A stretch of DNA of 11,849 nt from Myxococcota bacterium (GTDB lineage Bacteria > Myxococcota > JACRCW01). The translations under genes and the position numbers were made by a program. The stretch lies in NCBI GenBank assembly GCA_040752415.1, contig JBFMGU010000311.1, forward strand, positions 1-11,849, given 5' to 3'. Below are positions 2,911 through 11,358 of the stretch, piece after piece. The notes under the pieces are model-generated. The model made no database searches. It was not told the DNA's origin and saw only the letters and a list, made by a program, of their open reading frames with translations. Numbering within the stretch: the first letter of the stretch is position 1; each line of letters begins with the position of its first letter.

Positions 2911-2946
2911 GTGCCCGTCGAGGATGGATGTGGCACACTGGCGCAC

Positions 2947-5814
2947 GTGAGGGTGCGCGCGCTGCCCATGGTGCTGCTGCTCGTCGGGGGGACGGCCCAC
3001 GCGGCGCCGCCCCTGCGCTCCTGGTCCACCATCAAGACCAGCTGCTGCGACATCACCTACCACGACGGACTCGACGAGGAAGCGCGTCACTTCGCGCGGG
3101 CGGCGCAGGAGGCGCACGAGGCCGCGTGCGAGTTCCTGGCCTACTCCCCCGACGAGCGCACCCAGATCCTCCTCACCGACGACACCGACTTCTCCAACGG
3201 CAGCGCCACCCCACTGCCCTACAACCAGATTCGCGCCTATGCCCGTCCGCCCGGCTCCTTCTCCGACCTCGGCGACTACGACGACTGGGCCCGTGGCCTC
3301 ATCCTCCACGAGTACATCCACATCGCGCACACCGACCAGATTCGCGGCATCCCGCGCGCCATCAACTGGGCCTTCGGGAAAATCTACCCGCCCAACATGT
3401 TGCAGCCGCGCTGGTTCATCGAGGGGCTGGCCACCTTCGGCGAGACCTACATGACGACGGGCGGTCGCGCGCAATCCAGCATCTTCGAGATGTACCTGCG
3501 CACCGCGGCGCTCTCCGGCCAGCTCTGGCCCATGGACATCCTCAGCAGCGGCGGCCGGCCCTTCCCCGGCGGCAACGGCGCGTACCTGTACGGCGGGCAC
3601 TTCCTGGGGTGGATTGCGGAGAAGAAGGGCGCGGGCGTCTTCGGCGACATCGCCAAGCGCTACGGCGGCACGGTGGTGCCCTACGCGCTGGACTGGGCGG
3701 CGGGACCCTCGCTGGGTGAGGACTACGTCATCCTCTACGACCAGTGGCGCTACCAGCTCACCGAGGACGCCGAGGCGCTGGTGAGGCGCGTGGAGGAGGC
3801 GGGTCGCAGCGTGGAGCGGCGGCTCACCGGGATTGGCCAGAGCGTGCTCTTCCCGCGCCTGCTCCCCGACGGAAAAGTGGCCTTCTACGCCGCCCCCACC
3901 GACGACAGTCCCGGCCTCTACGTCATGAAGCCGCGCGCCGGCGCGGTGCCCACGCTCACCCGCATTGCCGAGGTGCAGAACATCCAGGGCCTCTCGCCCA
4001 CGCCCGACGGGAAGGCCATCATCTTCTCCCAGCCCGAGGTGTACGGGAACGAATACGTGTTCCTGGACCTGTGGCGCGCGGAGTTGGGGACCGGGGAGCT
4101 GCGTCGCATCACCGCGGGCGCGCGCCTGCGCGACCCCGACGTGCACCCCGACGGAAAACTGGCCATGGCGGTGGAGAACCGCGTGGGCAACAGCCGCCTG
4201 GTGCTGGTGGACCTCTCCACCGGCGCGGTGCGCGGCCTGTTCAGCTTCGGCGACGGCTCGGAAATCCACTCCCCGCGCTTCTCCCCCCGCGGCGACGCCG
4301 TGGTGTTCACCGCCTGGCGCCCCGGCGGCTTCCGCGACGTGTACCTGCTGCGCGCCGGCCAGCCCGTCCCCGAGCGGCTCACCGCCGACCGCGCCATGGA
4401 CCTCCACCCCGCCTTCTCCGCCGACGGAAAGAGCGTCTACTTCAGCGCGGACCGCGACGGCGTCTTCAACATCCACCGCATCCCCCTGGACGGAACCACG
4501 GTGGAGCGCGCCACCAACGTCGTCACCGGCGCGTTCATGCCGCTCCCGCTCGAGGAGGAGGGCGCGCTCTTGTACGTGGGGTTCGGCCCGGAGGCCTTCG
4601 ACCTGTACGCCACCGCGCTCAACCCGGTGGCGCTCCCGCCCGCCCCGCCCGCCGAGCCGCGGCTGCCGGCCAAGGCGCTTCCCCACGTCGCCATCAGCGA
4701 GCCCACGCCGTACCTCCCGTTCGAGAGCATGCAGCCCTTCACCTGGGAGCCCATGCTGCGCGGGAGCACGCTCAGCGCGTTCAACGTCGGCGCGGTGGTC
4801 AGCGGGCAGGACCTGGTGGGCTACCACGCGTACTCCCTGGAGGCGCGCGCCATCCTCCCGCTGTGGGACTACGCGTGGGCCGCCAGCTACGCCTTCACCG
4901 GTTTTCCCATCACCCTCGCCACCAGCGCCGCCGGGTACGTGGCGCGCCCCTCGCGCTCGCTCACGTCGGAGGGGGCGTTCCTGCGCTTCCCCGAGGACGT
5001 CTTGCGCGGGGAGCTCAGCGCGGCCCTGCCGCTGTCGCGCTGGCGTTGGGGCCACCTGTTCACCGTGGGCTACAGCCTGGAGATGCGCCGGGTGCGCGGC
5101 GGCCCCATCCTCCGCCCCGACGGCCCCGAACCCCTCCTCCAGCTCAGCCGACCCATCAGCGCGGTGGCGTTCACCTGGTCGCACAACAACGTGCGCTCCT
5201 TCCGTGACTCGGTGAGCACCGAGCGCGGTCGACGCATGTTCGCGCGCGTGCGCGTCAGCCACCCGCTCATGCTCAGCGGCTACACGCTCTACGAGTTCAA
5301 CGCCGACTACCGCGAGTACATCCCGGTGCCCGGCCTGCCACGCCACGTGTGGTTCCTGGGACTGTCGGGCGGCGTGGCACGCGGGGACATCACGCGACGA
5401 CGCGTTGCCTTCGTCGGCGGCATCCCGGAGCGGAACATCTTCCTGGACGTGCTCACCCAGACGCGCATCGGCGCGGGCTTCCTGCGCGGCTACCCGTTCG
5501 CGTACGAGTTTGGCGACGGATTCGTGCTGGCCAACCTGGAGTGGCGCTTCCCCATCCTGCAGGTGCAGCAGGGCTTCCACATGGTCCCGTTCTTCGTCGA
5601 CCGGCTGCGGGGCCTCGTCTTCTATGACCAGGGCCTGGTCTTCAATGATTTTCCGAAAGGCGCCAACATCAAGCGCGGGGTGGGCGCGGAGCTGCTCGTC
5701 GACACGCAGATCTTCTACGTGCTGCCACTGGACCTGAGGTTTGGGATGGCGCGCGGGTTGGACCGCGGGGGACTGGACCTGCAGCTGTACTTCGCGCTGG
5801 GGGCGGACAGCTGA
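2947..5814 (+). CDS. Omp85/BamA-TamA family outer-membrane protein with N-terminal HEXXH (gluzincin/peptidase MA-like) domain and TolB/PD40 beta-propeller
   Basis: Signal peptide (RVRALPMVLLLVGGTAHA-A); LILHEYIHIAH plus downstream PRWFIEGLA; PD40-like repeats (SPTPDGK, PDVHPDGK, PRFSPRGD, PAFSADGKSVYFSADRDG); C-terminal amphipathic strands with LRGY, ANLEWRFP, FYDQG and GVGAEL. The start could be 2911, 2947 or 2968. Confidence 0.88.
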   Translation: MRVRALPMVLLLVGGTAHAAPPLRSWSTIKTSCCDITYHDGLDEEARHFARAAQEAHEAACEFLAYSPDERTQILLTDDTDFSNGSATPLPYNQIRAYARPPGSFSDLGDYDDWARGLILHEYIHIAHTDQIRGIPRAINWAFGKIYPPNMLQPRWFIEGLATFGETYMTTGGRAQSSIFEMYLRTAALSGQLWPMDILSSGGRPFPGGNGAYLYGGHFLGWIAEKKGAGVFGDIAKRYGGTVVPYALDWAAGPSLGEDYVILYDQWRYQLTEDAEALVRRVEEAGRSVERRLTGIGQSVLFPRLLPDGKVAFYAAPTDDSPGLYVMKPRAGAVPTLTRIAEVQNIQGLSPTPDGKAIIFSQPEVYGNEYVFLDLWRAELGTGELRRITAGARLRDPDVHPDGKLAMAVENRVGNSRLVLVDLSTGAVRGLFSFGDGSEIHSPRFSPRGDAVVFTAWRPGGFRDVYLLRAGQPVPERLTADRAMDLHPAFSADGKSVYFSADRDGVFNIHRIPLDGTTVERATNVVTGAFMPLPLEEEGALLYVGFGPEAFDLYATALNPVALPPAPPAEPRLPAKALPHVAISEPTPYLPFESMQPFTWEPMLRGSTLSAFNVGAVVSGQDLVGYHAYSLEARAILPLWDYAWAASYAFTGFPITLATSAAGYVARPSRSLTSEGAFLRFPEDVLRGELSAALPLSRWRWGHLFTVGYSLEMRRVRGGPILRPDGPEPLLQLSRPISAVAFTWSHNNVRSFRDSVSTERGRRMFARVRVSHPLMLSGYTLYEFNADYREYIPVPGLPRHVWFLGLSGGVARGDITRRRVAFVGGIPERNIFLDVLTQTRIGAGFLRGYPFAYEFGDGFVLANLEWRFPILQVQQGFHMVPFFVDRLRGLVFYDQGLVFNDFPKGANIKRGVGAELLVDTQIFYVLPLDLRFGMARGLDRGGLDLQLYFALGADS

Positions 5815-9719: not shown

Positions 9720-10205
9720 TCACGCCACGCGGGTCACGGTCAGCTCCCGCACACGTCCCGCGAGGCGCACGTCGCAGGAGTCACCCTCACGCTTGCCGAG
9801 CAGCGCCTGGCCCAGCGGGGATTTGGGCGTCACCACCTGCACGCGACCACCCGCCAGCTTGGCACCACCACCCGCCGGCGCGAGGAAGTAGACGCTCGTC
9901 GCCGCGTCGTCCTCGACGGTGACCACGGCACCCAGCGCAACGGGCGCGTCGTCACCGAGGTCCTTGACCGGCAGTCCCTGCACCAGCCCCAGCTCCGCGC
10001 GCAGCTCCTCCACGCGCAGGGCCTGTCCGCGCGCCAGGTAGGACTGCTCCAGGCCACGCGTGTCCTTGTCGTTCTCCGGCTTGGCCTCCTCGTGGGTGGC
10101 GCCTTCCCGCGCGGCGCGTTGGGCACGCTCGGCCACGTCGAGTTGGGCGGTGAGGAGGCGGACCAGCTCGTCCTTGAGGGCTGCCTTGGAGGGGAGTGGG
10201 GCCAT
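9720..10205 (-). CDS. GreA/GreB-family elongation-factor-like protein (divergent subfamily)
   Basis: N-terminal coiled coil with ATHEEAKPENDKDTRGLEQSYLARGQ; C-terminal Gre domain VALGAVVTV...VVTPKSPLGQALLGKREGD. Start at 10205 or 10217. Confidence 0.85.
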   Translation of the reverse strand: MAPLPSKAALKDELVRLLTAQLDVAERAQRAAREGATHEEAKPENDKDTRGLEQSYLARGQALRVEELRAELGLVQGLPVKDLGDDAPVALGAVVTVEDDAATSVYFLAPAGGGAKLAGGRVQVVTPKSPLGQALLGKREGDSCDVRLAGRVRELTVTRVA

Positions 10206-10292
10206 GGGGTGGCGCATGGTCGCGCAAGGGCTCGACGGGGAGCAAATGGCACGGGGCGGGGACGCTGGCGGGAGACGGAGAAAACGGCTTCA

Positions 10293-11009
10293 ATGGCGCG
10301 GGTGAGCACGCCGTCCCGCATTGCGCCCACGTCGTCCGCGGCCATTTCCGGGCTGGCCCGACCCGCCGAGCTCCCCACCCGCCGCATCCCGGTGACCCTG
10401 CGACGCGAGGGCCTGGGCTACGCCCCCTTGTCCGCCCCGGTGTGCCCCCACTGCCAGGTCGCGGCCCCCGAGGGGCTGGAGACGCTGCTGCTGCGTCGTC
10501 ACCCCGCGTGGCTGAAGGTGTCCGAGAAGCTGGGCGCGCCCCCGGCGGTGTTCCTTTCGGCGCTGGGGCTGATGGCGGTCCCGCACCTGCGACACTTCGG
10601 GGTGCTGCTGTTCTTCTTTGGTCCGTGCATGTCGCTCTCGCACCACGGGGTGATGCGCCTGGTGAAGGGGTCCCGGCTGCGCGTGAAGCTGGGGTTGTGC
10701 GCGGCGTGTCGCAAGCAGCTGCGCGAGCTGGGCACGCGGGAGGCCCGCTTCCGCCGGCTCAAGAACGTTGCCGCGTGGGCGCTGGTGTTGGTGGCGCCAG
10801 TGGCCATGGGGCTCACGGCGGCAGCGTCGGGGTGGGACCTGGCGGCGGGCGCGTTGGCGGCCACGTGCCTGGTGGGATGGGCGGCGGAGCGGTCGGTGGA
10901 GCGCGCCCGGGCGCGTCGGCTGCCGGAGCTGGAATCCGTGGATGAGACCGGGGCACGGATCCTGGTGCCGGCGCACTGGCCGCGCCCCGCCGAGTCGGGT
11001 GCCGGGTAG
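10293..11009 (+). CDS. Hypothetical membrane protein with two CxxC motifs
   Basis: Last 238 aa of ORF 9654..11009: CPHC, two hydrophobic segments, LGLCAAC, then two more TM segments (VAAWALVLVAPVAMGLTAAA; LAAGALAATCLVGWAA). Start is ATG 10293 or GTG 10302. Confidence 0.7.
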   Translation: MARVSTPSRIAPTSSAAISGLARPAELPTRRIPVTLRREGLGYAPLSAPVCPHCQVAAPEGLETLLLRRHPAWLKVSEKLGAPPAVFLSALGLMAVPHLRHFGVLLFFFGPCMSLSHHGVMRLVKGSRLRVKLGLCAACRKQLRELGTREARFRRLKNVAAWALVLVAPVAMGLTAAASGWDLAAGALAATCLVGWAAERSVERARARRLPELESVDETGARILVPAHWPRPAESGAG

Positions 11010-11332
11010 GGCTGCGTCAGAACAATCTGCCCATTCCGTCGTGGCCGGCGAACACCTAACCCCCCCACGTTCATGCCGTTGTGCTCGCTCGCCCCCCTTC
11101 CCCAGTACCGATTTTCCGTCGTCACCGCGCCGGGGAAGGGGGGCAATCGCCGGGCGCAGTGCCCACTTTCCGACGAGAAAGTGCCCCAGACCAATGCGTG
11201 GCCCCCTTCCCCGCAAGGGTTGACGACGGTGCGGTGAGCGGGTGTGGGGGGGCGAGTGGACGCAGTGGCGCGAACGTGGGGGGCAAGTGTTCGCCGGCCA
11301 CGACGGAATGGGCAGATTGTTCCAACCAGCCC
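11009..11332. repeat. Large nested palindromic element (MITE/REPIN-like or structured ncRNA) with 36-bp perfect terminal inverted repeats
   Basis: GAACAATCTGCCCATTCCGTCGTGGCCGGCGAACAC at 11020-11055 is the exact reverse complement of 11287-11322. Further nested arms are 11061-11072/11272-11283, 11074-11097/11247-11270 (with G.U), 11116-11124/11221-11229 and 11131-11142/11202-11213. The outer pair is GGGCTG/CAGCCC (11009-11014/11327-11332). Confidence 0.9.
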
Positions 11333-11335
11333 CTG

Positions 11336-11358
11336 GCGGATCCAACCCGCGGATCCGC
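11336..11358 (-). terminator. GC hairpin immediately after the TPR gene stop (possible terminator or stability hairpin)
   Basis: GCGGATCC-AACCCGC-GGATCCGC forms an 8-bp stem 6 nt past the TAG at 11365-11367; no U-tract. Confidence 0.35.

What the first reader, a model, noticed from the sequence alone, without database searches (positions are those of the whole stretch)
11009..11332. ~320-nt non-coding rod-shaped palindrome with perfect 36-bp terminal inverted repeats between convergent genes
Seen: nearly the whole intergenic space folds back on itself. A perfect 36-bp arm (11020-11055/11287-11322) is followed by 12-, ~24-, 9- and 12-bp nested arms, which close a ~60-nt centre holding two small hairpins (GGGCG-CAG-TGCCC 11152-11164; CACTTTC-CGACGA-GAAAGTG 11164-11183). 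It is far too large for a terminator, has no credible ORF, and there is no transposase in the window. A CA dinucleotide flanks both ends of the 36-bp arms (11018-11019, 11323-11324), a weak possible 2-bp target duplication. Inference: a non-autonomous mobile element (MITE or REPIN-like, mobilised in trans) or an undescribed structured RNA. The arms are exact at the outside and degenerate inwards, which fits protein-recognised ends.
Basis: partly seen in the sequence, partly recalled or inferred. Interest (0 to 1): 0.75.

Follow-up and report, generated by a model that had tools for sequence, protein, structure and literature searches.

The report
Miniature mobile repeat with nuclease-linked arms
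The big palindrome is one worn copy of a gene-less mobile repeat scattered through this bacterial genome; its outer ends look like transposon ends, and its inner arms match the DNA that brackets a small nuclease gene (DUF559), a candidate partner for a long-unexplained class of bacterial repeats.

Summary
The palindrome is real (exact 36-bp arms; folding z -18). It is one damaged copy (11008-11333) of a genome-specific family, 'A', at about 90-125 loci.

The element has two layers. (1) A 25-bp terminal inverted repeat with a T-N-A flank, shared with a second 293-bp family 'B' that shows 3-bp target duplications (8 of 26, 2.0 expected). (2) An inverted pair of BoxC/triplex-motif-like arms with long loops of fixed length. 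The same arms, in the same orientation, bracket a DUF559 nuclease gene on another contig.

Best reading: a MITE built from a gene-less derivative of a DUF559 cassette, moved in trans by a DDE transposase of IS1182/IS5 type. No transposase with matching ends was found in the fragmented assembly. There is no support for an RNA gene.

The scan noted the DUF559-BoxC pairing before, in other genomes and probably for this family. My paper searches did not find it in print.

The parts
11008..11333 (.). Whole element: one copy of repeat family A (326 bp)
   Evidence: BLAST and alignment of copies; termini
11008..11032 (+). Left terminal inverted repeat (25 bp, shared with family B); overlaps the stop codon of the left ORF
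11033..11048 (+). Family-A-specific 16-nt linker
11049..11066 (+). C-rich tail of the left BoxC-like arm (putative third strand on the opposite strand); its TAA is a hot spot for nested insertions in other copies
11091..11144 (+). Left arm hairpin: 13-bp C-rich/G-rich stem (11091-11103 / 11132-11144) with a 28-nt loop
11145..11200 (.). Asymmetric centre (about 56 nt); at the C323 locus a DUF559 gene occupies this position
11201..11253 (-). Right arm hairpin, damaged (short deletion in the G-rich stem strand relative to other copies)
11278..11293 (-). Right arm tail, damaged (TTA site lost)
11310..11333 (-). Right terminal inverted repeat, with substitutions near the tip
11020..11055 (+).
11287..11322 (-). 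Right half of the exact 36-bp pair
11336..11358 (.). Small host hairpin outside the element, before the TPR gene stop; no T-tract, not called as a terminator

Best explanation
A composite non-autonomous mobile element (MITE). Shown: about 90-125 dispersed loci; a fixed architecture of terminal repeat + linker + BoxC-like arm + centre + mirror image; a T-N-A consensus just outside the termini; the same terminal repeat on a second family with 3-bp direct duplications; the inner arms homologous to both flanks of a DUF559 gene. Inferred: (1) the body is a gene-less derivative of a DUF559 cassette, the gene replaced by a 56-nt centre; (2) this doublet became enclosed by transposon-type ends and was amplified in trans by a DDE transposase with a 3-nt T-N-A target, most likely of the IS1182 (or IS5) kind, which is lost or unassembled; (3) the T-N-A target includes stop codons, so copies collect at gene 3' ends at little cost; (4) after insertion the long palindrome homogenises its arms and erodes at the tips, giving this copy's exact 36 bp. 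This copy has damaged ends and is probably no longer mobile.
For: Copy number: 124 merged BLAST loci, 29 of them internal and over 250 nt; 126 arm hits at E<1e-5 in 90 loci. Termini: 218 profile hits = 67 A, 116 B, 15 orphan A ends, 20 other. Flank: T at -3 in 65% and A at -1 in 70% of 43 A ends, 62% and 78% of 82 B ends, in a 69% GC genome. Direct 3-bp duplication in 8 of 26 complete B copies vs 2.0 expected, p=1e-4; one B copy sits in an A arm with a direct duplication, so its empty site is known (C334). An intact IS1182-family element in this genome (C499; NF033551 over cut-off) has (A/G)GG ends, a TGA direct repeat, and sits in another palindromic repeat. Several of its phylum relatives show the same TGA flanks. 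The terminal repeat sits at a fixed 41 nt from the core and is near-intact in 54% of 95 arms, so it is copied with the body. An arm profile built without C323 finds both flanks of the C323 DUF559 gene (E 1.3e-11 and 2.5e-8; gene identity).
Against: No transposase with these ends was found: none of PF13340, PF13586, PF13359, PF13737, PF13546 matched; the only long element bounded by such ends was C499, whose ends differ in sequence and register. For family A itself direct duplications are not enriched (2 of 12, 1.2 expected, p=0.33), and this copy has none. 26% of A arms have lost the terminal repeat while their core is as close to consensus as in intact arms (0.877 vs 0.881, p=0.81), so the core persists without the ends; B loses its ends at the same 26% rate. 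Only 4 of 65 A ends fall exactly on the stop of a long ORF. No empty orthologous site could be examined.
Confidence: 0.58

Rival explanations
1. REPIN-like system run by DUF559. The single-copy DUF559 nuclease recognises the arm (hairpin plus third strand), nicks it, and host repair or recombination spreads gene-less doublets. The terminal repeat is a passenger or a secondary acquisition.
For: The arms bracket the C323 DUF559 gene in the same orientation as in the doublet, without the terminal repeat. The second DUF559 gene (C384) abuts a different repeat with 71 hits on 49 contigs, and the A profile does not hit it. In the sister genus one DUF559 flank has 9 matches in its own genome and none in two others. 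Across 53 homologue loci a C-rich hairpin lies in 57 of 100 near flanks vs 5 of 93 distant flanks. The core is the most conserved part and loop lengths are fixed. The protein keeps an E-x-D-G-x-x-H-D stretch resembling the EDxHD motif (PMC3239194 passages) and matches PDB 3hrl.
Against: Family B carries the same termini and target consensus without BoxC-like arms. The T-N-A flank marks the boundary at the terminal repeat. A nuclease domain alone has no known strand-joining activity (own knowledge). The distant-flank control is largely coding DNA, so it overstates the enrichment. The C323 arms score lower (37-48 bits) than the window's intact arm (86 bits).
Confidence: 0.25
2. REPIN moved by one of the genome's two Y1/RAYT-type transposases.
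For: Two PF01797 genes exist in the genome; the element is an inverted doublet of hairpins in intergenic space.
Against: Both Y1 genes are flanked by other repeats with no visible likeness to A or B. No conserved GTAG/GGAG tag precedes the A hairpins or ends (the tag is recalled). Direct 3-bp duplications in B are not expected of HUH enzymes (own knowledge).
Confidence: 0.07
3. A functional structured RNA or two-way transcript-end hairpin kept by selection at this locus.
For: Very stable fold. 16 of 21 complete internal copies have an ORF ending within about 150 nt and pointing into them, vs 236 of 1500 random positions (crude ORF rule, control mostly coding).
Against: No Rfam hit; no G.T/A.C strand bias; no terminator or sigma-70 promoter pattern; this copy's right arm is damaged; only 3 of 21 copies have ORFs ending on both sides. 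An incidental effect on mRNA 3' ends is likely but does not explain the family.
Confidence: 0.06

Closest known systems
Bacterial MITEs mobilised by DDE insertion sequences (IS5/IS1182 type)
   Same: Short, gene-less, multicopy, lineage-specific; shared terminal repeat across two families; 3-nt target consensus, with duplication shown in the sister family; nested insertions.
   Different: 326 bp and palindromic over nearly its whole length; the body is a pair of nuclease-associated repeats; cognate transposase not found; duplication not shown for family A.
BoxC / PIT / TM_ECO intrastrand-triplex repeats (PMC4666352; passages and section 18 read)
   Same: C-rich tail containing TAA, then a C-rich/G-rich hairpin; a G-rich third strand in mirror register with the purine stem strand (10-11 of 12 triplets by inspection); intergenic; inverted pairs (5 such pairs in E. 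coli K-12 in that paper).
   Different: Loops of 28-29 and about 25 nt instead of 3-6 and 3 nt; zero strict TM_ECO matches in the genome; enclosed in terminal repeats. The paper found no association with mobile elements.
REPIN-RAYT systems (recalled; no paper read)
   Same: Inverted hairpin doublets, many gene-less copies, one gene-bearing copy per repeat family.
   Different: The bracketed gene is DUF559 (Vsr-like nuclease by recall and motif), not a Y1/HUH transposase; no GTAG-type tag seen.
IS1272 / TnSha1 (IS1182 family) stem-loop-replacing transposition (PMC5678879 abstract and passages; PMC4923244 passages)
   Same: Insertion into palindromes with loss of the target interior: elements abutting the A-arm site more often show mirror flanks than a direct duplication (5 vs 1 of 14 rows).
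   Different: IS1272 makes no target duplication and replaces 21-85-bp structures; here about 230 bp is missing, and 2 of 6 complete copies of an unrelated family show the same mirror outcome, so it may be driven by the palindrome rather than the enzyme.

Membership tests
MITE (DDE-mobilised) | Non-coding, short, multicopy | tested here: met
MITE (DDE-mobilised) | Terminal inverted repeats | tested here: met
   25-bp consensus, 218 hits; near-intact in 54% of arms
MITE (DDE-mobilised) | Target-site duplication | tested here: inconclusive
   Met for B (8 of 26, p=1e-4); not significant for A (2 of 12); T-N-A flank in both
MITE (DDE-mobilised) | Autonomous element with the same ends | tested here: inconclusive
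   Not found in a 520-contig assembly, 96.8% complete by markers; repeats break many contigs
MITE (DDE-mobilised) | Empty orthologous sites | not testable with these tools
   No genome of the same genus among those searched; no sequencing run listed
IS1182-family derivative | Ends matching an IS1182 element | tested here: not met
   C499 and phylum relatives share the style ((A/G)G start, TGA flank) but not the sequence or register
BoxC / TM_ECO | Strict pattern: 9-nt stems, loop 3-6 nt, second loop 3 nt | tested here: not met
   0 matches in the genome; loops 28-29 nt in 87 of 94 arms and 25 nt in 85 of 94 (definition)
BoxC / TM_ECO | C-rich stem, G-rich stem, mirror G-rich third strand (class II layout) | tested here: met
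   Purine stem strand identical in 89 of 94 arms; G-run followed by TTA in 74 and TTG in 17
BoxC / TM_ECO | Forms an intrastrand triplex in vitro | not testable with these tools
   Needs CD, NMR or DMS footprinting
REPIN-RAYT | Same repeats flank a Y1/HUH transposase gene | tested here: not met
   Both PF01797 genes carry other repeats; A arms flank DUF559
REPIN-RAYT | Inverted doublet of hairpin repeats with a single gene-bearing copy | tested here: met
Structured non-coding RNA | Rfam match or one-strand G.U bias | tested here: not met
Structured non-coding RNA | Discrete transcript | not testable with these tools
   No RNA run listed

The most novel reading that the evidence does not exclude
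DUF559 nucleases are the dedicated partner enzymes of BoxC/triplex-type repeats, one gene per repeat family, as RAYTs are for REPINs. Family A is a giant long-loop version whose fixed loop lengths and conserved mirror register point to a protein-read structure, and whose doublet was then captured by transposon ends, giving a repeat with two independent routes of spread.
Probability: 0.3. Interest if true: 0.72.

Novelty: new variant of a known kind. Interest (0 to 1): 0.42.

Why it matters
As a single locus it is selfish repeat DNA and should not be annotated as an RNA gene. As a family it offers a clean test of an open question: what spreads or maintains BoxC/triplex repeats, for which PMC4666352 reports no function and no mobile partner. 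This genome holds two DUF559 genes, each beside a different high-copy repeat, so each enzyme has a cognate and a non-cognate substrate from the same cell. The long-loop arms also test whether triplex formation or only the sequence layout matters.

Tried and rejected
CA target duplication: rejected, it is internal. RNA gene: Rfam negative, no strand bias. Sequencing runs: none was listed, so no reads were laid; this is no evidence either way.

Terminal-repeat pattern elsewhere: 0 in genome contigs. 15 metagenome hits showed no inverted partner end, no match to A or B beyond the motif and no tblastn match to the C499 transposase. 5 viral hits had no partner end. 20 of those hits were fetched: no IS1182 match by tblastn, and ORF lists of 10 of the 20 showed no evident transposase by eye. 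No plasmid or phage match.

C499 IS1182, the C342 fragment and the broken C279 remnant as parent: ends do not match; the motif upstream of C279 belongs to another sequence. Y1 transposases: other repeats. Other long A-bounded pairs (C108, C270, C473, C46) hold a nested gene-less element, not a gene. No B arm pair more than 260 nt apart was found among 74 pairs. Mirror symmetry does not extend past the ends into host DNA. Inverted flank triplets are not enriched. The A-arm profile found nothing in loci L071-L146. No tree of the arms was built. The BoxC-ycjD link in E. coli is recalled and echoed by earlier scan notes; it was not tested here. Paper searches for the DUF559-repeat link listed nothing on it; I saw listings only, and supplements were not opened.

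Full report
Observation. The fold-back is real. The 36-bp arms are exact, shuffled windows reach at most 20 bp, and the region folds at z -18.3 and -14.3 on the two strands. It fills the gap between a left ORF (GC3 0.92, no Pfam match) and a TPR gene on the other strand. Rfam gives nothing here.

It is a repeat family. The window is contig C237 of an 11.0-Mb, 69% GC, 520-contig genome; earlier scan notes call it an uncultured Myxococcota bacterium, which I did not verify. BLAST gives 124 merged loci, 29 of them internal and longer than 250 nt; the best full-length hits are 76-89% identical. An arm profile gives 126 hits at E<1e-5 in 90 loci, 40 of them near contig ends. Forty relatives give only two marginal 29-33-nt matches. 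The end pattern occurs 105 times here and at most 5 times in any of 400 phylum genomes.

Copies align from a terminal repeat that starts at 11008 and ends at 11333 in this copy, so the CA dinucleotides are internal. Across 112 arms the tips are the most variable part and the inner core the most conserved, though arms were found by that core. A copy's two arms resemble each other more than other copies' arms (0.67 vs 0.54 over the outer 41 nt, p=0.0002, 27 pairs; the window copy is not among them because its right core is damaged), and the effect stops at the ends. In the closest copy (C119) the two linkers differ, while here they are identical. I infer that the perfect 36 bp is local arm-to-arm homogenisation.

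Layer 1: transposon-type ends. A profile of the terminal repeat finds 218 sites: 67 on family A, 116 on a second family B (about 293 bp, unrelated interior), 15 orphan A ends and 20 others. Both families are flanked by T-N-A (A: T 65%, A 70% of 43 ends; B: 62%, 78% of 82 ends). Complete B copies show a direct 3-bp duplication in 8 of 26 cases against 2.0 expected (p=1e-4); A copies in 2 of 12 against 1.2 (not significant). The genome holds one intact IS1182-family element with (A/G)GG ends and a TGA direct repeat, inserted in another palindromic repeat, plus fragments. Several phylum relatives share the TGA flanks. Its ends are not the A/B ends, and five other DDE families were not found. The mobiliser is therefore inferred by type, not identified.

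Layer 2: BoxC-like arms tied to DUF559. Each arm is a C-rich tail with TAA, a spacer, and a 13-bp C-rich/G-rich hairpin. The purine stem strand is identical in 89 of 94 arms, the hairpin loop is 28-29 nt in 87, the second loop is 25 nt in 85, and the tail reads as a mirror third strand with TTA in 74 and TTG in 17. This is the layout of the E. coli BoxC/TM_ECO triplex motif, but the published pattern needs loops of 3-6 and 3 nt (PMC4666352) and has no match in this genome. It is built like BoxC but fails strict membership. An earlier scan note (e1-7716861) pointed to DUF559, and I tested it. On contig C323 two such arms, in the same inverted orientation and without the terminal repeat, bracket a 127-aa DUF559 gene (PDB 3hrl). 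A profile built without C323 finds both flanks (E 1.3e-11, 2.5e-8) and not the flank of the second DUF559 gene, which abuts its own repeat with 71 hits on 49 contigs. In the sister genus one DUF559 flank has 9 matches in its own genome. Among 53 homologue loci from many phyla, 40 have a C-rich hairpin within 250 nt, with 57 of 100 near flanks vs 5 of 93 distant, mostly coding, flanks.

Nested behaviour. The TAA in the arm tail is a hot spot: 27 of 173 matches to the linker-tail motif run straight into an A/B-type terminal repeat, 91 continue into the core and 55 are other, mostly chance or decayed. Of 14 rows for complete elements abutting this site (three elements counted twice), 5 have mirror flanks with the A interior gone, 1 has a direct duplication and 8 were one-sided under the strict rule. 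This recalls stem-loop replacement by IS1272 (PMC5678879, PMC4923244), but an unrelated nested family shows the same outcome in 2 of 6 complete copies, so palindrome instability may suffice.

Against the best reading. 26% of A arms lack the terminal repeat with no extra decay of the core (0.877 vs 0.881), which fits a core kept by something else, such as DUF559. But B, which has no such arms, loses its ends at the same rate, and the target consensus sits at the terminal repeat. Only 4 of 65 A ends and 10 of 115 B ends coincide exactly with the stop of a long ORF. No empty site or expression data could be examined.

RNA reading. No Rfam match, no G.T over A.C bias between arms (103 vs 98), no terminator or promoter pattern, and a damaged right arm. 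Any effect on transcript ends is probably incidental.

Verdict. A composite MITE (0.58) whose body derives from a DUF559 cassette; the rival is DUF559-driven spread (0.25). New variant of a known kind. The DUF559-BoxC link was not in the listings of five paper searches, but this scan has noted it in other genomes; those notes are not independent evidence. What this locus adds is a giant long-loop variant, its capture inside transposon ends shared with a second family, and two gene-repeat pairs in one genome for a reciprocal test. Interest 0.42.

Noticed in passing
G000:C279:32475-32766 and about 70 other paired loci (family B): A 293-bp palindromic family sharing the terminal repeat, 221 arms, no gene-bearing copy found; 98-bp internally deleted versions at C18:24333 and C500:24807.
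   Followed up: partly
L018:1309-2786 (G000:C499:5235-6712): Intact single-copy IS1182-family element with a TGA direct repeat, inserted in a palindromic family carrying 7-bp tandem repeats; the C500 mini-element sits in the same heptad type.
   Followed up: partly
contig ends C38, C80, C31, C82 and others: A second, unassembled multi-copy element with IS1182-like ends in the same heptad repeat; the start of its putative gene occurs on 9 contigs.
   Followed up: partly
L068:60-195 (G000:C384): Second DUF559 gene abutting a different C-rich repeat family (71 hits on 49 contigs).
   Followed up: partly
G000:C108:13484-13866, C270:1121-1549, C473:3790-4130, C46:40944-41283: A further palindromic family (49 ends; 33 with A-like flanks) inserts into the loops of A hairpins, twice with mirror flanks.
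   Followed up: partly
L016:24-440 and L017:1490-1890: Two Y1/RAYT-type genes, each flanked by its own repeat family.
   Followed up: partly
many repeat families in G000 and L127 flanks in G001: A short CGTCG/CGACG motif recurs in several otherwise unrelated repeat families, including the loops of A; possibly a shared protein site. Not quantified.
   Followed up: no
L127:1340-1490 (G001:C160): In the sister genus a DUF559 gene lies between direct, not inverted, long-loop G-rich repeats with a loop motif like that of A.
   Followed up: partly
window 2911-5814: 967-aa ORF with PD40 repeats and a C-terminus that looks like an outer-membrane barrel (the barrel is my recall, not a tool result).
   Followed up: no
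window 9720-10217: GreA/GreB C-terminal-domain protein divergent from the left flanking ORF.
   Followed up: no
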